From a virus (lineage: Duplodnaviria; Heunggongvirae; Uroviricota; Caudoviricetes): 41,597 nt of DNA. The notes under the pieces are model-generated. The model saw only the letters and a program-made list of their open reading frames with translations. It did no database searches and was not told the DNA's origin. Of the stretch, positions 5,565 through 35,500 are shown piece by piece. The DNA is taken from IMG/VR virus record IMGVR_UViG_2703718828_000001, positions 1-41,597 of that record; one strand, written 5' to 3'. Within the stretch, counting starts at the first letter, position 1, and every line of letters starts with the position of its first letter. The translations under genes and the position numbers were made by a program.

Positions 5565-5641
<77 letters not shown>

Positions 5642-7993: not shown

Positions 7994-8332
7994 ATGAACA
8001 GTTTAAACCGATTCAGGCCAGCTAAGCAATTCAGATGCCTGCCGCTGAAGGGGAAAAGCTCCCCGTTCGGCTATGTGGAAAGAGTACACAGCGCTGGTGG
8101 TGCCAACAACTACCAGTCGTGTTCAGAAATGGTAGCGGCATTTGCTCTGATGAACGAGAAGGGGCGTGAGGAATGGCTGAAGTTGACCGGAGGTTCAGAG
8201 ACCACAGAGGAATCCCTGTGCGGGTCATCCGATGGGAGCCAGCCACACGCCGCGTTATATACCTTCGCGAAGGGTACGATCATGAGTGCTTCAGCCCTCT
8301 TGAGCAATTCCAGCGCAAATTTACAGAGTTAA
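7994..8332 (+). CDS. Hypothetical protein (uncertain; alternative frame 8173..8385 also open)
   Basis: 112-aa ORF with GGAG RBS ending just before the O-like gene. Confidence 0.3.
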   Translation: MNSLNRFRPAKQFRCLPLKGKSSPFGYVERVHSAGGANNYQSCSEMVAAFALMNEKGREEWLKLTGGSETTEESLCGSSDGSQPHAALYTFAKGTIMSASALLSNSSANLQS

Positions 8333-8341
8333 AGGACTGCC

Positions 8342-9268
8342 ATGAGCCTGTTAATGCCATCCCGGCCGATAGTGATAAACCCTGACCTTGCATACAGCAT
8401 TGGCCTGAACGAGGCAATTGCGTTGCAGCAGGTGAACTACTGGCTGAAAGAAACAAACTCCGGTCTGGAGCGTGACGGCGTGCGCTGGATATATAACACC
8501 AACGAGCAGTGGCTGGAGCAGTTCCCGTTCTGGTCAGAGTCTACCCTGAAGCGCACCTTCACCCGCCTGAAGACTCTCGGCGTGCTCAAAATTGAGCAGC
8601 TGAATAAGTCTCAGCGCGACATGACGAACTACTACACGATCAACTACGAAAGCGAGCTTTTAGATGAGGTCAAAGTGACCAAATCGAAGAGTTCAAAATG
8701 CACTCGTCCATCAGGTCAAAATGAACCGATGGAAGAGGTCAAGGTGGAACACTCCATCGGGTCAAAACGAACCGCTGTCATCAGGTCAAATTGCACTGAT
8801 GTTCTTACAGAGAATACAACAGAGATTACTACAGAGAATAAAACCCCTTCTTGTCCGGTTGCGTCGCAACCAGACCGTGAAGTGTTGATCACTGATCAGG
8901 CCAAATCGGTGTTATCTCACCTGAACCAGGTCACGAACTCACGGTTCCAGGTATCAACCACATCCCTGCAGAATATCCGCGCCCGTATCGGCGAGGGGTT
9001 CACCGTGGAAGAGCTGCAGCTGGTGGTCGATTACTGCAACGCCAAATGGGCTGATGATCTGAAAATGTCCGATTACCTTCGCCCCCAGACGCTTTTCCAG
9101 CCGACCAAGTTCCCTGGCTACCTGAAGTCTGCTAACAACTGGTCAAAAGCTGGTAAGCCTGCACGGGTTAACGGTGAGTGGGCGAGGGAAGAGGGCGTAT
9201 TCAAATCGAGTTTCCAGAACACCAACTACGGCAAGATCCCCGCTGGTTTCAGAGGAGCTAACTCATGA
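8342..9268 (+). CDS. Replication initiator, O-like (replisome-organiser N-terminus, conserved phage C-terminus)
   Basis: N-terminal IVINPDLAYSIGLNEAIALQQVNYWL; C-terminal MSDYLRPQTLFQPTKFPGYL; iterons lie inside the gene as in lambda O. Confidence 0.65.
   Translation: MSLLMPSRPIVINPDLAYSIGLNEAIALQQVNYWLKETNSGLERDGVRWIYNTNEQWLEQFPFWSESTLKRTFTRLKTLGVLKIEQLNKSQRDMTNYYTINYESELLDEVKVTKSKSSKCTRPSGQNEPMEEVKVEHSIGSKRTAVIRSNCTDVLTENTTEITTENKTPSCPVASQPDREVLITDQAKSVLSHLNQVTNSRFQVSTTSLQNIRARIGEGFTVEELQLVVDYCNAKWADDLKMSDYLRPQTLFQPTKFPGYLKSANNWSKAGKPARVNGEWAREEGVFKSSFQNTNYGKIPAGFRGANS
8668..8790 (+). repeat. Putative replication origin: six direct iterons at ~23-bp spacing, followed by an AT-rich tract
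   Basis: GGTCAAA-type repeats at 8668, 8691 (GTTCAAA), 8714, 8737 (GGTCAAG), 8760 and 8784; then ACAGAGA repeats at 8805-8845. Confidence 0.65.
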
Positions 9269-13074: not shown

Positions 13075-13443
13075 ATGCGCGATATTCAAATGGTTTTAGA
13101 ACGCTGGGGCGGGTGGGCTGCAAGTGATAATTCTGGTGTCGATTATTCACCTATTGCTGCGGGATTCAAAGGGCTCCTACCTCAGGAAAGCAAACCCCGT
13201 CTCTCTTGCACTGATGACGATGCCTTAATCATTGAAGGGTGCCTTGCTCGCTTAAAGAAGAAAAAGCCCTATGAACATTCTTTGCTAGTAGCTCATTATT
13301 TATACGGTATTTCTAAGCGGAAGATAGCTAAAGCGCGCAAGAAAGATGAGAAGATTATTCGCATTGAGATACAACTTGCAGAAGGCTTTATTGATGGATG
13401 TTTGGCAATGTTAGACATCAAACTTGAGATGGACTTATACTAA
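13075..13443 (+). CDS. Late-gene antiterminator Q (QuuD-like)
   Basis: MRDIQMVLERWGGWAA...AAGFKGLLP...CLARLKKKKP resembles QuuD-type Q proteins; GGAGA RBS. Confidence 0.7.
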   Translation: MRDIQMVLERWGGWAASDNSGVDYSPIAAGFKGLLPQESKPRLSCTDDDALIIEGCLARLKKKKPYEHSLLVAHYLYGISKRKIAKARKKDEKIIRIEIQLAEGFIDGCLAMLDIKLEMDLY

Positions 13444-13450
13444 TAATTAT

Positions 13451-13480
13451 GGCGGCCACATACTTTGTGGCCCACGCCAA
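13451..13480. terminator. GC-rich hairpin between convergent genes (bidirectional terminator candidate)
   Basis: Stem ggccaca / tgtggcc (13454-13472) flanked by A/T-rich sequence. Confidence 0.45.
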
Positions 13481-13482
13481 CA

Positions 13483-14259
13483 TTATTTTGCTACAACAAA
13501 AGGAATAATATTATCTGCAGGGATTATGATGCTATTTATTTTTGGTATCAATAATCTGCCATTTTGATAAAAATCAAATACGAATCTAAACTCTTTCTCA
13601 TGCCTGAATTTTTGTGGTTTAAGCATATAGCTATGGCTTAACCAATCAATAACTTGTTTCGGATTAGTTTCAACCTCTTTGTTCTCAATCTGTATATTCC
13701 TTTCAGTGTACTTTATTTGGGTAGCTTCCCACTCCAAATGTAAAGTATCTTTTGTAACCTCTCTGTCGAATAGAGATTCACCATTTTGAATTCTCTTCCC
13801 TATAGTTAGTATCAAAGACTGCGCAATTTCATTAGCTACTTTCTCTAAATCTTCTAATTTGATGTGCCAGTAATCATTATAATCCTTGAATATGGATTTG
13901 CATTCAAGAGGATCTTCAAGAAGTGAAATGCAGAATACAAATCTATTGTATTTACTCAAAGATGCCGTAGCCTTAAATTTATCAATGAATAAATAGTCAG
14001 TTGCTAGCTTACTGTGAGGATATACAATTAATTCCTCGGTGTAAAATTTGTTATCAGAATTAAATGACGATGACATTTGATTGAATAAATGTGCAGGTAA
14101 ATCTATTCCGGATAAGTTAAAAGTCATAAATATATATCCTTCATCCTTGTCTGCAATCTCTTCTTTTTCTGTATCCCTGTATTCCGTCAGACTTCCTATT
14201 TTGATTGTTTTCCTGATTAAAATATTGTCACGTTCATCGCAACTTTTCACTAGATACAT
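13483..14259 (-). CDS. AT-rich orphan cargo gene, 258 aa, no recognisable domain
   Basis: ATG at 14259 with AAGGTG RBS; visibly A/T-rich against GC-rich flanks; antisense to the late operon, between Q and the lysis cassette. Confidence 0.6.
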   Translation of the reverse strand: MYLVKSCDERDNILIRKTIKIGSLTEYRDTEKEEIADKDEGYIFMTFNLSGIDLPAHLFNQMSSSFNSDNKFYTEELIVYPHSKLATDYLFIDKFKATASLSKYNRFVFCISLLEDPLECKSIFKDYNDYWHIKLEDLEKVANEIAQSLILTIGKRIQNGESLFDREVTKDTLHLEWEATQIKYTERNIQIENKEVETNPKQVIDWLSHSYMLKPQKFRHEKEFRFVFDFYQNGRLLIPKINSIIIPADNIIPFVVAK

Positions 14260-14392
14260 GAAAACACCTTACTTTTTGGGTGGTTGAAAAAGTTCATACG
14301 CGGTCCGCAAAAAATGCGGTAATGTGATAAGAGTCGTTACTAAGAAAGACCGCTTACGAAGTTCAAGTTATACACAATTCAAGGAACTACTT

Positions 14393-14419
14393 AAAGGCCG
14401 CCATTGGGCGGCCTTTTTC
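14393..14419 (+). terminator. Rho-independent terminator, candidate tR' (Q-antiterminated)
   Basis: aaaggccgcc-attg-ggcggccttttt hairpin with T-tract, ~50 bp upstream of the holin gene. Confidence 0.6.
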
Positions 14420-14465
14420 ATATCCCCTCGTTCTGAGAGGAATCACGGCAATAAGAGGGGGCTAA

Positions 14466-14861
14466 ATGTCCGATCCTGTTTCTGGCACTACGGTAGCGGC
14501 TGGTGGTCTGATGGGGGCCAGCATGTTTGGCCTGGCAACTGGCATTGATTACGGCGTGGTGTTTGGCGCATTTGCTGGCGCGGTGTTCTACGTTGCAACG
14601 GCGGTAAACATCAGCCGTCTTAAGCTGGTGGGCTACTTCATCACCTCGTTCATCTTCGGCGTTATCGGCGCTCCATTACTTGGGTCTTACTTCTCCAAAT
14701 GGACGGGTTACAGCGACAGGCCACTTGATGCGCTGGGCGCGGTAATCGTAGCCGCTATTGCCATTAAGCTGCTGACGTTCGTCAACAGTCAGGATTTGGG
14801 TAGCCTGTTTGGAATTCTCTCTCGCTTACGTGGAGGAGGGGCCAGCAATGGTAACAAGTGA
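14466..14861 (+). CDS. Putative holin (multi-TM membrane protein)
   Basis: 131 aa with several hydrophobic segments; first gene of the lysis cassette. Confidence 0.5.
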   Translation: MSDPVSGTTVAAGGLMGASMFGLATGIDYGVVFGAFAGAVFYVATAVNISRLKLVGYFITSFIFGVIGAPLLGSYFSKWTGYSDRPLDALGAVIVAAIAIKLLTFVNSQDLGSLFGILSRLRGGGASNGNK

Positions 14862-16856: not shown

Positions 16857-16903
16857 CCATTCCAAAGCTCACCTGCTGGTGGGCTTGATAATGCCGTAGC
16901 GCT

Positions 16904-17014
16904 CTAAAAGTTGAAGCCTTTTGCCAGGCAATAGGTTTTAACAATCTCGTTGATTGCTGGGGAAAGAGCGATTACTAGCGAGAAGAAAAGATCAATGTAG
17001 TGTGTATATGGCAT
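16904..17014 (-). CDS. Candidate small hydrophobic peptide, 36 aa
   Basis: Minus-strand ATG at 17014 preceded by AGGAGGT; MPYTHYIDLFFSLVIALSPAINEIVKTYCLAKGFNF. Confidence 0.3.
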   Translation of the reverse strand: MPYTHYIDLFFSLVIALSPAINEIVKTYCLAKGFNF

Positions 17015-17243
17015 GGGTTTACCTCCTGAGATTTAAGTGACTGGAGATACCTCGATGCGAGATATCTAGTGTGTCGGTTAACTCTCCGGGGTGATCTGTT
17101 ATCTACTATAAGAGATAAAACCTCTATCCTCTCAAGCGGATAAACATTCGAATATCCCGTGTAGGGGATAGGCCTTACAACAGGCATTCACTACTATGTG
17201 TGACAATGCTAATCTTGCTGTGCAAAAACACAGCAAGGAAATG

Positions 17244-17462
17244 CGCATGAACGAAGAAATGACAATTAGCAAATTGTATGAAATCGGGAAATCATACTTT
17301 CCTGGCGGACATTTTCGAGTGGAGGTATGGGATCTCGGTGTTCGTTTTGTGCATATGACTACCGAAAATAAAGAGGGAAAGACAGCTTTCCTTCAGGCTG
17401 ATCTTAAGACTCTTACATCTGCCGCAGTTCGCGGCTTCTTGGATGCTGAAACACGAGGCTAG
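17244..17462 (+). CDS. Hypothetical protein
   Basis: 72 aa from ATG at 17244 with AAGGA RBS; followed by a terminator. Confidence 0.4.
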   Translation, partial: RMNEEMTISKLYEIGKSYFPGGHFRVEVWDLGVRFVHMTTENKEGKTAFLQADLKTLTSAAVRGFLDAETRG

Positions 17463-17494
17463 ATTTCCATTTAATTCTGTACAAATAATCCCCC

Positions 17495-17522
17495 AAAGCC
17501 CTGCACCAACGGGGCTTTTTTA
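17495..17522 (+). terminator. Rho-independent terminator
   Basis: aagccc ... ggggct hairpin followed by T6. Confidence 0.5.
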
Positions 17523-32589: not shown

Positions 32590-35500
32590 ATGGTAACTGC
32601 AACCGCAATTAAAGGCCGCAAAGGTGGTGGCTCTAAATCCCGCACGCCTACCGAACAGCCTGACGATCTCCAGTCTGTTGCAAAGGCAAAAATATTAATC
32701 GCGCTGGGGGAGGGGGAGTTCTCAGGACAGTTAACCGGCAAGGATATCTACCTGGACGGTACCGCGATTGAGAATGCTGACGGCTCTCAGAACTTCAGCG
32801 GCGTCACCTGGGAGTTTCGTCCCGGCACGCAGGCGCAGAAATACATCCAGGGCATACCCGGCACCGAAAACGAAATTAGCGTGGGTACCGAAGTATCAAG
32901 CGCCACAGCCTGGACCCGAACGTTTACCAATACCCAGCTTTCTGCTGTTCGTCTGCGCCTGAAGTGGCCATCGCTGTTCCAGCAGGAAGACGATGGCGAT
33001 CTGGTCGGGTATTCGATTAAATATGCGATTGATCTGCAGACCGACGGCGGCACCTGGCAGACGGTGCTGAATACCAGCGTAACCGGTAAGACCACATCCG
33101 GTTATGAACGCAGCCACCGTATCGATCTTCCGCAGGCCGGCAGCACATGGACGCTTCGTCTGCGTAAAATCACCGCTGATGCGAACAGCGCGAAGATCGG
33201 CGATACGATGACGCTGCAGAGCTTTACCGAGGTGATTGACGCCAAGCTGCGCTACCCAAACACCGCGCTGCTGTACATCGAATTCGACTCAAGCCAGTTC
33301 AATGGCTCTATTCCTCAGATTTCATGCGAACCGCGCGGACGCGTTATTCGCGTGCCGGATACCTACGATCCAGAAACCCGAACCTACAGCGGGACCTGGA
33401 CGGGGACGTTTAAGTGGGCATGGACGGATAATCCGGCGTGGATTTTTTACGACCTGGTGGTGACCGACCGCTTCGGGCTGGGTGATCGCCTGACGGCGGC
33501 GAATATCGACAAATGGACGCTATACCAGGTGGCGCAGTACTGCGATCAGATGGTGCCGGACGGTAAAGGCGGAAGCGGTACCGAACCCCGCTATACCTGC
33601 AACGTCTATGTTCAGGAACGGAACGATGCCTACACCGTTCTGCGTGATTTTGCTGCCATATTCCGGGGTATGACCTACTGGGGCGGTGACCAGATTGTTG
33701 CGCTGGCGGATATGCCCAGGGATGTTGATTACAGTTATACCCGCGCCAACGTGATTGATGGCCGCTTTACCTACGCCAGCAGTACCACGAAAACGCGCTA
33801 TACCACAGCGCTGGTTTCCTGGTCCGATCCGTCTAACGCCTATGCTGATGCAATGGAGCCGGTGTTTGAGCAGGCACTGGTGGCACGTTACGGATATAAC
33901 CAGCTGGAAATGACGGCTATTGGGTGTACCCGCCAGTCAGAGGCAAACCGCAAAGGACGCTGGGGCATCCTGACCAACAACAAGGACCGCATCGTTTCTT
34001 TCGATGTCGGCCTGGACGGTAACATTCCACAGCCCGGTTATATTATCGCCGTGGCAGACGAAATGCTGTCTGGAAAGGTTATGGGCGGGCGCATCAGCGC
34101 TGTTAACGGCAGGGTAATCACGCTGGACCGCAAACCCGACGCAGTGGCTGGCGGCCGACTTATTCTGAACCTGCCTTCTGGCGCTTCTCAAAGTCGTACT
34201 ATCCAGTCGGTAAACGGCCAGGCCGTGACCGTCACGACGGCTTACAGCGAAACGCCACAGGCTGAGGCTGTCTGGGTAGTTGAGTCCGATGAACTCTATG
34301 CGCAGCAGTACCGTGTTGTGAGCGTCACGGATAACAACGATGGCACATTCTCTATCGCGGGTGCGTGGCACGATCCGGATAAATATGCCCGCATCGATAC
34401 TGGCGCCATCATTGACCAGCGCCCGGTGAGCGTCATTCCTCCGGGCAACCAGTCGCCGCCTGCTAACATCGTCATCAGCTCGTTCTCCGTGGTGCAGCAG
34501 AATATCAGCGTCGAAACCATGCGCGTAAGCTGGGACCAGGCGCAGAACGCTATCGCCTATGAAGCGCAATGGCGCCGCAACGACGGGAACTGGGTTAACG
34601 TCCCGCGCAGCTCAACCACGTCCTTCGATGTGCCGGGGATATATTCGGGCCGCTATCTGGTACGTGTGCGGGCTATCAACGCCGCTGAGATTTCCTCCGG
34701 GTGGGGCTATTCGGAAGAGAAAACTCTGACCGGGAAGGTGGGCAACCCGCCGAAACCGGTGGGCTTCACCGCCTCTGAAAACGTTGTATTTGGTATCGAG
34801 CTGAACTGGGGGTTCCCGGCGAATACGGACGACACGCTGAAAACCGAAATCCAGTACAGCCTGACCGGCAGCGATGATGATGCGCTGCTTCTGAGCGATG
34901 TCCCCTATCCGCAGCGCAAGTATCAGCAGATGGGCCTGAAGGCGGGGCAAATTTTCTGGTACCGGGCGCAGCTGGTGGACAGGACAGGCAATGAGTCGGG
35001 TTACACAGACTGGGTACGTGGACAGGCCAGCATCGATGTATCGGATATCACCGATGTTATCCTGGAAGATATTAAAGAATCGGACACGTTCAAGGAACTG
35101 ATCGAAAGCGCCGTAGACGGCAACGAGAAAATTGCTGGCATGGTCGACGACATCAGACAGAACGCTGACGATCTGGAGCAACAGGCGCTGGCCATCAAGG
35201 AAAACGCCGATGGGCTCGCCCAGGCCGAGGTGAAGATTGACGAAATCTCTGTCTCAATGGACGGCATGACGGGAGGCGTTAAAAACTCCTCTATTGCGGT
35301 TATCCAGAACAGCCTGGCGCAGGTAACCAGCCGTCGATCCCAGACAGCCACCAACGCCGGGAACAGCGCCAGCATCGACCGTATCGATACCACCATTGCA
35401 GATACCAGCCATTCGGTTGCCCGTGCGCTGGTGACGCTTGATGCTTCTGCGGGTGGTAACGTCTCAAACGCGACCGATCTCACCGAAACCCTTGCTGATT

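What the first reader, a model, noticed from the sequence alone, without database searches (positions are those of the whole stretch)
13451..14420. AT-rich orphan gene in the Q-to-lysis cargo hotspot
A 258-aa ORF (13483-14259, minus strand) sits between the Q antiterminator and the late terminator and holin, where lambdoid phages classically carry cargo such as Shiga toxin. It is strikingly A/T-rich against GC-rich flanks, transcribed against the late operon, has its own RBS and is followed by a hairpin, so it is likely expressed in the lysogen. I recognise no domain. An abortive-infection or other anti-phage function, or a toxin, is a reasonable hypothesis and my best candidate for an undescribed system here.
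Basis: partly seen in the sequence, partly recalled or inferred. Interest (0 to 1): 0.75.

Follow-up and report, generated by a model that had tools for sequence, protein, structure and literature searches.

The report
Prophage cargo gene, DUF2971-like enzyme
The AT-rich gene wedged between a prophage's late-gene switch (Q) and its lysis genes is real and belongs to a large, unnamed family distantly related to DUF2971 proteins, one of which is a proven single-gene anti-phage system, so it is most likely a stand-alone phage-defence enzyme that nobody has tested.

Summary
A 258-aa ORF (13483-14259, minus) has 31.7% GC against 52% flanks (z = -5.5). It is convergent with Q, has an AAGGTG ribosome-binding site and is followed by a hairpin.

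It is not an orphan. A profile search finds 457 clusters (at 50% identity) of ~260-aa single-domain proteins, all unnamed.

No Pfam, NCBIfam or PADLOC model reaches threshold. The confident AlphaFold model has no PDB or BFVD neighbour.

Profile-profile comparison links the C-terminal ~80 residues to genuine DUF2971 proteins (hhalign 94.8%, E 5e-8). The invariant Y, K, F, ExE and R residues line up one to one. DUF2971 is a predicted ADP-ribosyltransferase-like family. It includes Aristaios, a validated single-gene abortive-infection system, and PADLOC candidate PDC-S31.

The gene is always solitary. It is the only cargo of a 3.1-kb E. coli plasmid. It evolves much faster than its neighbours.

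Sister phages with the same Q type carry other antisense cargo in the slot, including a TIR protein in mEp390. The slot appears to lie between Q and its probable late promoter, so it differs from the stx position.

Best reading: a stand-alone defence enzyme expressed in the lysogen. ADP-ribosyltransferase chemistry is inferred, not shown.

The parts
13075..13443 (+). Q antiterminator gene (122 aa), convergent with the cargo ORF
   Evidence: PF06530 in the identical locus L001. 90% aa identity to phage mEp390 Q. Q is the only recurrent neighbour of the family: position +1, opposite strand, in 10 distinct family clusters.
13454..13472 (.). Hairpin GGCCACA-TACTT-TGTGGCC between the two convergent stop codons; terminator-like on both strands but without a clear U tract
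   Evidence: Folding gives -18.1 kcal/mol (+) and -20.0 kcal/mol (-), z -4.3 and -3.3. A hairpin at this position recurs in mEp390, SfIV, cdtI and Klebsiella prophages with unrelated sequence. mEp390 annotators marked a bidirectional terminator there.
13483..14259 (-). 258-aa cargo ORF: solitary member of an unnamed ~260-aa family remotely related to DUF2971
   Evidence: ORF. Homologs. Conserved residues K5, C7, Y27, R28, D37, E40, G41, C110, S112, Y127, W131, Y184, R187, K214, E221, E223, R225 are all present. hhalign to DUF2971 proteins: 94.8%, E 5e-8. AlphaFold model pLDDT 88.6.
14265..14270 (-). Ribosome-binding site AAGGTG, 5 nt upstream of the ATG
   Evidence: Read from the sequence.
14367..14395 (-). 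Weak candidate promoter for the cargo gene: TTTAAG, 17 nt, TATAAC (8 of 12 matches)
   Evidence: My own reading of the sequence. It is below the threshold of the promoter scan, which reported nothing here on this strand. Unverified.
14299..14334 (+). Conserved non-coding block CGCGGTCCGCAA...TGTGATAAGAGT; probable Q-cognate late promoter and Q-utilisation region
   Evidence: Aligned across the window, mEp390 and two Klebsiella prophages despite different cargo or holin. The 12-mer occurs exactly once in each of 17 loci. In every locus whose gene layout was examined (mEp390, cdtI, the Klebsiella prophages, the window) it lies between the cargo's 5' end and the lysis genes. It occurs once in the window. 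The functional assignment is inference from lambda's architecture.
14393..14419 (+). Stem-loop with T run (AAAGGCCGCC-ATTG-GGCGGCCTTTTTC), late-terminator-like, 47 nt before the holin start
   Evidence: -20.5 kcal/mol, z -5.2. An equivalent stem-loop with T run follows the conserved block in mEp390 and the Klebsiella prophages. The terminator scan missed it, probably because the A/T flanks extend the stem.
14466..14861 (+). Holin, first gene of the lysis cassette
   Evidence: PF16931 in L001. Annotated as holin in mEp390 and E. coli genomes.

Best explanation
The ORF encodes a cytoplasmic, single-domain enzyme. It belongs to an unnamed ~260-aa family that is a divergent sister of DUF2971.

It is carried as solitary cargo between Q and the probable late promoter of a lambdoid E. 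coli prophage, on the strand opposite to the late genes.

Most likely it is made in the lysogen and acts as a one-protein, abortive-infection-type defence against other phages. A variable surface (residues ~42-104 and 135-181) would sense an infection cue. An invariant pocket would then carry out a toxic modification. That pocket is built from four conserved blocks: K5/C7, Y27-R28...D37-x-x-E40-G41, C110-M/I-S112...Y127...W131, and Y184...R187...K214...E221-x-E223-x-R225. By analogy with the ADP-ribosyltransferase prediction for DUF2971, the modification would be NAD-dependent ADP-ribosylation of nucleic acid or of a protein of the transcription machinery.

**Shown here:** the gene, its family, its conserved residues, its remote homology to DUF2971, its solitary and mobile nature, and the variability of the slot.

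**Inferred:** expression in the lysogen, the defence phenotype, the sensing role of the variable regions, and the chemistry.
For: **Family**
- 457 representatives at E <= 1e-3, nearly all 250-275 aa and matched end to end.
- Across 133 diverse members E40, W131, K214 and E223 are invariant. K5, C7, Y27, R28, D37, C110, S112, Y127, Y184, R187, E221 and R225 are kept in at least 90%. This is the pattern of an active site.

**Homology to DUF2971**
- hhalign of the family against 54 homologs of a genuine DUF2971 protein gives 94.8% probability, E 5e-8. The seed protein scores 22.9 bits against Pfam's cut-off of 22, and several of its homologs are named DUF2971.
- The aligned pairs are Y184=Y151, K214=K172, F218=F176, E221=E179, E223=E181, R225=R183.
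- A relaxed alignment also pairs D37-x-x-E40-G41 with the invariant D-P-F-E-G, C110 with C104 and W131 with W116.
- 18 of 133 members give faint Pfam DUF2971 hits. 13 of 133 hit PADLOC PDC-S31, best E 6e-6. The genuine DUF2971 protein hits PDC-S31 at 3.9e-26.

**Function of relatives**
- Aristaios is a 316-aa DUF2971 protein and a validated single-gene Abi-like system. It disturbs phage transcription (PMC11381338, PMC13064643).
- DUF2971 and the sister families Lsan_0116 and Lsan_2474 are predicted ADP-ribosyltransferase-like (PMC12522546). The Lsan_2474 motifs Kxx / [CS]Mx / QxE resemble K5-S-C / C110-M-S112 / E221-x-E223.

**Context**
- No recurrent same-strand partner in 46 family clusters.
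- It is the sole cargo of the 3,164-bp plasmid pEC545_5, alongside Rep and Rop.
- It occurs in the Q slot, at prophage ends after the tail fibres, and at the end of a small integrase-capsid island.
- It is AT-richer than its flanks in 64 of 64 loci.
- It is 38-49% identical between prophages whose Q proteins are 66-83% identical.
- mEp390, whose Q is 90% identical, carries an antisense TIR protein in the same slot (PADLOC TIR-TM, E 1.9e-56).
Against: - No experiment exists for any member of this family.
- The window protein itself hits no PADLOC model. It scores only 8.6 bits on Pfam DUF2971, against a cut-off of 22.
- Significant homology covers only the C-terminal third. The N-terminal and middle alignments are not significant on their own (E 0.006 and 0.09).
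- The ADP-ribosyltransferase assignment of DUF2971 is itself computational.
- No good sigma-70 promoter was found upstream. A gene at 32% GC in E. coli is a typical target of H-NS silencing (established knowledge). Expression in the lysogen is therefore uncertain.
- A solitary toxin-like enzyme with no antitoxin needs a mechanism that keeps it inactive, and none is known.
Confidence: 0.5

Rival explanations
1. It is a defence protein, but its chemistry is not ADP-ribosylation. The conserved K/C/D/E/Y/R pocket would belong to a different enzyme type, such as a nuclease, a nucleotide hydrolase or another NAD-consuming enzyme, on a fold with no solved relative.
Confidence: 0.2
2. It is a lysogenic-conversion toxin or effector aimed at eukaryotic cells or competing bacteria. 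It would be carried next to Q much as Shiga toxin, cytolethal distending toxin and the APSE toxins are.
For: Phages with the same Q family include Stx-converting phages, and APSE phages with toxin cassettes next to Q. The Legionella survey predicts many members of the related families to be secreted effectors.
Against: No signal peptide, transmembrane segment or delivery domain is visible in the sequence. The gene is antisense to the late operon, so it is not released by the Stx-type route of co-transcription with lysis. The family occurs in environmental Pseudomonas, Rhodobacteraceae and Bacteroidota and on a 3-kb plasmid, with no secretion genes as recurrent neighbours.
Confidence: 0.1
3. 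It serves the phage's own cycle. For example it could modify a host or phage component to control the lysis-lysogeny decision, lysis timing or superinfection, or it could counter a host defence.
For: It is tightly linked to the Q / late-promoter region in at least 10 family clusters. Phage-encoded ADP-ribosyltransferases that reprogramme the host are known, such as T4 Alt, ModA and ModB (established knowledge).
Against: The slot holds unrelated genes in sister phages, or none in antisense, so the function is dispensable for this phage type. The same family sits at prophage ends, in a satellite-like island and on a plasmid with no phage genes.
Confidence: 0.1
4. It is a silent or decaying passenger with no current function in this host.
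For: It is absent from all 5,426 complete E. coli genomes at DNA level. It is very AT-rich and has no clear promoter. Frameshifted copies exist in two genomes (L057, L059).
Against: The frame is intact and every family-invariant residue is present. The identical protein is found on 26 contigs. The active-site pattern is conserved across 457 clusters.
Confidence: 0.05

Closest known systems
DUF2971 (Pfam PF11185), including Aristaios (Lactococcus single-gene Abi-like system) and PADLOC candidate PDC-S31
   Same: - Similar size (~250-320 aa), single domain, solitary gene on mobile elements.
- Same order of conserved motifs.
- Significant profile-profile match over the Y...K..F..E-x-E-x-R region.
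- Shared D-x-x-E-G and Cys motifs in the relaxed alignment.
- Aristaios is experimentally anti-phage.
   Different: - The window protein fails the Pfam threshold (8.6 bits against 22) and hits no PDC-S31 model.
- Its first strand starts at Met1 with M-x-L-x-K-x-C, not the W-R-Y-M or H-Y type motif.
- It carries a variable beta-rich insertion (residues ~42-104).
- Its middle motif is C-M-S, not C-W-H.
Lsan_2474 and Lsan_0116, predicted ADP-ribosyltransferase-like families from the Legionella survey (PMC12522546)
   Same: - The published Lsan_2474 motifs Kxx / [CS]Mx / QxE closely resemble K5-S-C / C110-M-S112 / E221-x-E223.
- Lsan_2474 is described as a distant relative of AbiGi and DUF2971 and is found in Vibrio, Pseudomonas, Yersinia and a siphovirus.
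- The DUF2971-type comparison set used here shows the Lsan_0116 motifs [RK]Y[ML] / [CS]WH / ExE.
   Different: - The third motif is ExE here in 122 of 133 members, not QxE.
- No Lsan_2474 sequence or model was available, so identity with that family could not be tested.
- Those authors favour secreted effectors, whereas the context here points to phage defence.
DarT of the DarTG toxin-antitoxin defence system
   Different: DarT is always paired with the DarG macrodomain antitoxin. This gene has no conserved partner. No family member hit a DarT model in PADLOC.
Shiga-toxin-type cargo of lambdoid phages
   Same: Variable cargo next to Q. The same Q family is found in Stx phages, at 76% identity.
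   Different: Established knowledge places stx downstream of the late promoter and terminator, on the sense strand, co-transcribed with lysis. This gene is antisense and appears to lie upstream of the late promoter block.
Single-protein prophage abortive-infection systems (HepS of Gifsy-1, BstA)
   Same: One prophage-encoded protein that would both sense infection and kill or arrest the cell.
   Different: The folds are unrelated: HepS is a HEPN nuclease and BstA is a DNA-binding protein. No trigger is known here.

Membership tests
Pfam DUF2971 (PF11185) | Score at or above the Pfam gathering threshold (22 bits) | tested here: not met
   Window protein: 8.6 bits, E 6.7, residues 182-226 only. 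Best of 133 family members: E 0.036.
Pfam DUF2971 (PF11185) | Profile-level homology to genuine DUF2971 proteins, with the invariant residues aligned | tested here: met
   hhalign 94.8%, E 5e-8 over ~80 C-terminal columns. Y, K, F, E-x-E and R align one to one. The N-terminal part is only suggestive.
PADLOC PDC-S31 (candidate single-gene defence) | Match to a PDC-S31 model | tested here: not met
   No hit for the window protein, P0012, P0016 or the plasmid homolog. 13 of 133 family members hit weakly (best 6e-6). A genuine DUF2971 protein hits at 3.9e-26.
ADP-ribosyltransferase superfamily | The ADP-ribosyltransferase fold (split beta-sheet with an NAD-binding cleft) | tested here: inconclusive
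ADP-ribosyltransferase superfamily | Three-part catalytic signature [R/H] ... [STS/Y] ... [E/Q]xE on successive strands | tested here: inconclusive
   E221-x-E223 at the start of strand 223-232, C110-M-S112 on strand 107-114 followed by a helix, and K5 on strand 2-7 are all near-invariant. Which residues truly correspond to motifs I and II is not settled.
ADP-ribosyltransferase superfamily | NAD-dependent ADP-ribosyl transfer | not testable with these tools
   Needs biochemistry.
Toxin-antitoxin module (including DarTG and AbiG two-gene systems) | A conserved adjacent partner gene | tested here: not met
   Clustering of neighbours over 66 loci and 46 family clusters finds no recurrent same-strand or adjacent partner other than the phage's own Q, HNH, RusA and holin genes. 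The 3.1-kb plasmid holds only Rep, this gene and Rop.
Stx-type late-operon cargo | Located downstream of the late promoter and terminator, and transcribed with the late genes | tested here: not met
   The gene is on the opposite strand. The conserved block plus terminator lies between the gene's 5' end and the holin. The promoter assignment is inferred.
Prophage moron / variable-slot cargo | Deviant composition, its own transcription signals, and replacement by unrelated genes in related phages | tested here: met
   GC z = -5.5. Hairpin after the stop codon. In the same slot: a TIR protein in mEp390, a DUF6731 pair in cdtI and 716R3, and other genes in SfIV.
Anti-phage defence system (validated) | Reduced plating or burst of phages when the gene is present | not testable with these tools
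   No experiment on this family was found. All database names are 'hypothetical protein'.

The most novel reading that the evidence does not exclude
The family is an uncharacterised solitary defence enzyme. It is either an ADP-ribosyltransferase derivative remodelled beyond recognition or a fold with no solved relative. Its hypervariable beta-insert would sense phage infection directly, and its invariant K/C...D-x-x-E-G...C-M-S...E-x-E-x-R pocket would modify phage nucleic acid or the transcription machinery, with no antitoxin needed.

In addition, the interval between Q and the late promoter of this Q-type of lambdoid phage would be a dedicated antisense defence hotspot. Its conserved block would supply expression signals for whichever cargo is inserted: this family, TIR, DUF6731 and others.
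Probability: 0.25. Interest if true: 0.7.

Novelty: new variant of a known kind. Interest (0 to 1): 0.5.

Why it matters
If the defence role holds, a family of several hundred sequence clusters would move from 'hypothetical protein' to a testable single-gene immune system. The family is present in E. coli, Klebsiella, Pseudomonas, Acinetobacter, Aeromonas and marine bacteria, and is invisible to Pfam, NCBIfam and PADLOC.

It would extend the DUF2971/Aristaios branch of candidate ADP-ribosyltransferase defences to Gram-negative prophages.

It would also raise a specific question: how is a solitary toxin-like enzyme kept inactive without an antitoxin?

The slot analysis suggests a practical rule for finding further systems. 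Look for antisense genes between Q and the conserved late-promoter block in this phage group.

Tried and rejected
**Searches that found nothing useful**
- Direct scans of the protein against Pfam, PADLOC, PHROGs and NCBIfam gave only PHROG 13198, of unknown function.
- Sequence and profile searches of the PDB gave only chance hits.
- DNA and tblastn searches of the phage collection and the complete E. coli genomes do not find the ORF.
- A word-indexed protein search with the 133-sequence alignment returned only close relatives.

**Searches that failed and were replaced**
I replaced it with a hand-built degenerate DNA pattern for the G22...G41 motif. The pattern proved highly specific: 32 of 33 viral-contig hits were verified. 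The remaining hit sits at the edge of its locus and could not be checked.
- Consensus sequences of sub-clades scanned against Pfam and PADLOC improved little.
- hhalign restricted to the N-terminal or middle parts was not significant.

**Hypotheses rejected**
- Structural or housekeeping phage protein: the slot is variable and there is no such homology.
- Pseudogene: all invariant residues are intact.
- Toxin-antitoxin pair: there is no partner gene.
- Lipoprotein or secreted protein: the conserved N-terminal M-x-L-x-K-x-C is a predicted beta-strand, not a signal peptide.
- mEp390 gp47 and SfIV gp48/gp49 as family members: hmmsearch was negative.
Full report
**1. The observation**

The ORF at 13483-14259 on the minus strand is real: 258 aa with an ATG start.
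- Its GC content is 0.317. Elsewhere in the window, 777-bp stretches average 0.519 with sd 0.037, so z = -5.5. It is the most AT-rich stretch of the 41.6-kb window.
- It lies between the Q antiterminator (13075-13443, +) and the holin (14466-14861, +). Both are identified by precomputed Pfam hits in the identical locus L001.
- It is antisense to both genes.
- An AAGGTG ribosome-binding site sits 5 nt before the ATG.
- A stable hairpin at 13454-13472 occupies the 39-bp gap between the convergent stop codons. Its energy is -18 to -20 kcal/mol and z is -3.3 to -4.3.
- The promoter scan found nothing of consensus quality upstream on the gene's own strand. The best candidate I can read is TTTAAG, 17 nt, TATAAC at 14395-14367, with 8 of 12 matches.

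Every descriptive element of the finding is therefore confirmed. Expression in the lysogen is not shown.

**2. Not an orphan**

The word-indexed search found only 16 relatives. These are the identical protein on 26 E. coli contigs, 38-45% relatives in Klebsiella, a ~30% Klebsiella clade, and one Pseudomonas protein.

An exhaustive profile search found far more. There are 457 representatives at 50% identity with E <= 1e-3, 267 below 1e-10 and 107 below 1e-30. Nearly all are 250-275 aa and matched end to end. Every name available is 'hypothetical protein'.

In an alignment of 133 diverse members:
- E40, W131, K214 and E223 are invariant.
- K5, C7, G22, L24, Y27, R28, D37, G41, C110, S112, Y127, Y184, R187, E221 and R225 are kept in at least 90%.
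- Conservation is concentrated in four blocks: residues 1-41, 105-134, 182-192 and 213-232.
- Residues 67-104, 135-181 and 193-212 are variable.

This is the signature of an enzyme with a fixed pocket and a changeable surface. The window protein has every conserved residue.

**3. What the databases and structure say**

- Pfam, NCBIfam and PADLOC give no hit at threshold. PHROG 13198, of unknown function, matches the window protein (E 7e-7) and 124 of 133 family members.
- The AlphaFold model built on 15 sequences is confident, with pLDDT 88.6 and pTM 0.83. It is a mixed alpha/beta single domain.

I treat the ADP-ribosyltransferase hits as a hint only.

**4. The link to DUF2971**

- Faint Pfam DUF2971 matches recur in 18 of 133 members.
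- Matches to PADLOC's candidate single-gene system PDC-S31 recur in 13 of 133 members, best E 6e-6. They always fall in the C-terminal third.
- A DNA pattern scan happened to retrieve a contig (L074) that also carries a genuine DUF2971 protein. It scores 22.9 bits against a cut-off of 22 and hits PDC-S31 at 3.9e-26.
- I aligned 54 of that protein's homologs, several of them named DUF2971 or carrying PF11185.

Profile-profile comparison of the two alignments gives 94.8% probability and E 5e-8 over about 80 columns. The invariant residues pair exactly:

| Window family | DUF2971 set |
|---|---|
| Y184 | Y151 |
| K214 | K172 |
| F218 | F176 |
| E221 | E179 |
| E223 | E181 |
| R225 | R183 |

A relaxed alignment extends collinearly. 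It pairs D37-x-x-E40-G41 with the invariant D-P-F-E-G, C110 with C104 and W131 with W116. These pieces are not significant on their own, at E 0.006 and 0.09.

I conclude that the family is a divergent sister of DUF2971. The homology is secure for the C-terminal catalytic block and probable for the rest.

**5. What is known about DUF2971**

- A 2025 survey predicts DUF2971 and two neighbouring families to be ADP-ribosyltransferase-like (PMC12522546).
- Its Table 1 lists DUF2971 as HYx / Yxx / ExE. It lists Lsan_0116 as [RK]Y[ML] / [CS]WH / ExE and Lsan_2474 as Kxx / [CS]Mx / QxE.
- My DUF2971 comparison set shows the Lsan_0116 pattern: WRYM, SCWH, EHEKE.
- The window family shows K5-S-C, C110-M-S112 and E221-x-E223. 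This is closest to Lsan_2474 except for E in place of Q. I could not obtain a Lsan_2474 sequence to test identity.
- Aristaios is a 316-aa DUF2971 protein from a lactococcal plasmid. It is a validated single-gene Abi-like system and interferes with phage transcription (PMC11381338, PMC13064643).

**6. Genomic context**

I verified family members with an HMM on three sets of sequence. These were 32 of 33 IMG/VR viral contigs hit by the pattern, about 13 of the 24 loci it hit in the species-representative genomes, and the loci fetched through homologs.

- *Partners.* Neighbour clustering over 66 loci and 46 family clusters (<80% identity) finds one recurrent neighbour only. It is Q at position +1, convergent, in 10 clusters. 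The phage's own HNH/DUF968 and RusA genes follow it, and the holin lies on the other side. There is no partner gene.
- *Other settings.*
  - The end of Klebsiella prophages after the tail fibres. Here the identical protein occurs in both siphovirus-type and myovirus-type prophages.
  - The end of a ~9-kb integrase-capsid island in Pseudomonas.
  - A mobile region next to tmexCD-toprJ in Aeromonas.
  - A 3,164-bp E. coli plasmid that holds only Rep, the homolog and Rop.
- *Composition.* The gene is AT-richer than its flanks in 64 of 64 loci, 0.362 against 0.523.
- *Rate of change.* Between prophages that share the slot, the cargo is 38-49% identical. Q is 66-83% and the HNH protein 59-93% identical.

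Solitary, mobile, compositionally foreign and fast-diverging with a fixed pocket: this profile fits a defence gene well. It does not prove one.

**7. The slot**

Phages with the same Q type carry different cargo in the same place:

| Phage | Q identity to window | Cargo in the slot |
|---|---|---|
| mEp390 | 90% | Antisense 272-aa TIR protein (Pfam TIR_2 at threshold; PADLOC TIR-TM, E 1.9e-56) |
| cdtI and vB_EcoS-716R3 | 83-87% | Antisense pair of 146 aa and 312 aa (DUF6731) |
| SfIV | 88% | An IS element and two antisense genes |
| PhiR49_2 | 76% | Sense-strand methylase and tRNAs |

A non-coding block, CGCGGTCCGCAA...TG(T/A)TAAGAGT, lies at window 14299-14334.
- It is conserved across phages with different cargo, and even with a different holin type.
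- It occurs exactly once in each of 17 loci.
- In the loci whose layout I examined it lies between the cargo's 5' end and the lysis genes.
- In the four loci aligned it is followed by a stem-loop with a T run. In the window this is at 14393-14419, at -20.5 kcal/mol and z -5.2.

By analogy with lambda's late promoter, Q-utilisation site and late terminator (established knowledge), I infer that this block is the Q-cognate late promoter region. The cargo would then sit between Q and the late promoter. This differs from the stx position, which is downstream of the late promoter and terminator and on the sense strand.

One alternative is not excluded. A promoter-like site, TAGACA, 18 nt, TATACT (10 of 12 matches), lies at 13412-13441 at the end of Q. 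It would read antisense through the cargo. Transcript mapping would decide.

**8. Mechanism, with basis marked**

*Shown here:*
- a conserved single-domain protein with an enzyme-like invariant constellation;
- remote homology to DUF2971;
- a solitary, mobile gene;
- a variable slot that holds a TIR protein in a sister phage.

*From the literature:*
- a DUF2971 protein is a working single-gene abortive-infection system;
- the superfamily is predicted to be ADP-ribosyltransferase-like.

*Inferred:*
- The protein is made in the lysogen.
- It stays inactive until an infecting phage supplies a cue, sensed through the variable regions.
- It then modifies nucleic acid or the transcription machinery using NAD, which stops the infection.

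I put about 0.5 on the defence-enzyme reading as a whole. I put roughly 0.3-0.4 on ADP-ribosylation as the actual chemistry.

**9. Novelty and verdict**

The gene is not a member of any curated family. It fails the thresholds of DUF2971 and PDC-S31. It is a recognisable relative, however, so I file it as a new variant of a known kind.

It is a good, cheap experimental target. The surprise is moderate rather than high, because prophage-borne single-gene defences are now a familiar theme.

Noticed in passing
L075:1901-2719 (phage mEp390 gp47, record 33400-34218, minus strand): It is annotated as a hypothetical protein. It is a TIR-domain protein (Pfam TIR_2 28.7 bits against a cut-off of 28; PADLOC TIR-TM, E 1.9e-56). 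It sits antisense in exactly the same slot, next to a Q protein 90% identical to the window's.
   Followed up: partly
L077:3887-5275 (phage cdtI gp53-gp54); L078:3886-5274 (vB_EcoS-716R3): An antisense two-gene cassette (146 aa plus a 312-aa DUF6731 protein) occupies the same slot in two phages. In vB_EcoS-716R3 the larger gene is annotated 'portal (connector) protein', which looks like a mis-annotation. Neither protein hit any PADLOC model.
   Followed up: partly
window 14299-14334 and 14393-14419 (+): A conserved non-coding block with a terminator-like stem-loop, shared by phages with this Q type regardless of cargo or holin type. It is probably the late promoter / Q-utilisation region and late terminator. 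It would give a short leader transcript of roughly 70-75 nt (my estimate).
   Followed up: partly
window 13412-13441 (+): A strong promoter-like site (TAGACA, 18 nt, TATACT; 10 of 12 matches) overlaps the last codons of Q. It points into the hairpin and antisense through the cargo gene. It could drive antisense transcription or be the real late promoter.
   Followed up: no
L016 (NZ_CP018971.1, E. coli plasmid pEC545_5, 3,164 bp), homolog at 1755-2516: A small plasmid carries only Rep, a 253-aa family member (31.7% identical) and Rop. The family gene's start overlaps the end of rep by 10 nt.
   Followed up: partly
L074:2606-3394(-) and L074:8494-9237(+) (Alphaproteobacteria MAG contig): A genuine DUF2971 protein and a distant relative of the window family lie about 5 kb apart on one contig. 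This may be a defence island.
   Followed up: no
L057:7951-8747 and L059:8516-9310: Family genes are split into two adjacent ORFs, apparently by frameshifts, in a Gammaproteobacteria MAG and a Rhodobacteraceae MAG. They are either decayed copies or assembly errors.
   Followed up: no
L002-L006 (Klebsiella), gene at 8001-8759: The identical 252-aa family protein sits at the chromosome junction after the tail fibres in prophages with different tail modules (GpJ-type and baseplate-type). This suggests the gene moves between unrelated prophages.
   Followed up: partly
L011:59-8795 (Pseudomonas oryzihabitans): A ~9-kb island carries an integrase, small HTH genes, a capsid-like gene and the family gene at its far end. 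The layout looks like a phage satellite with a defence cargo.
   Followed up: no
window 5565-5641 (-): tRNA-Arg (anticodon TCT), the only RNA gene found in the window. It lies near a drop in GC (0.45-0.49 over 5-8 kb). It may be the prophage attachment site.
   Followed up: no
window 16900-17500: A second, milder low-GC patch (0.43) lies between the lysis genes and the packaging genes. It holds only small ORFs and may be another cargo slot.
   Followed up: no
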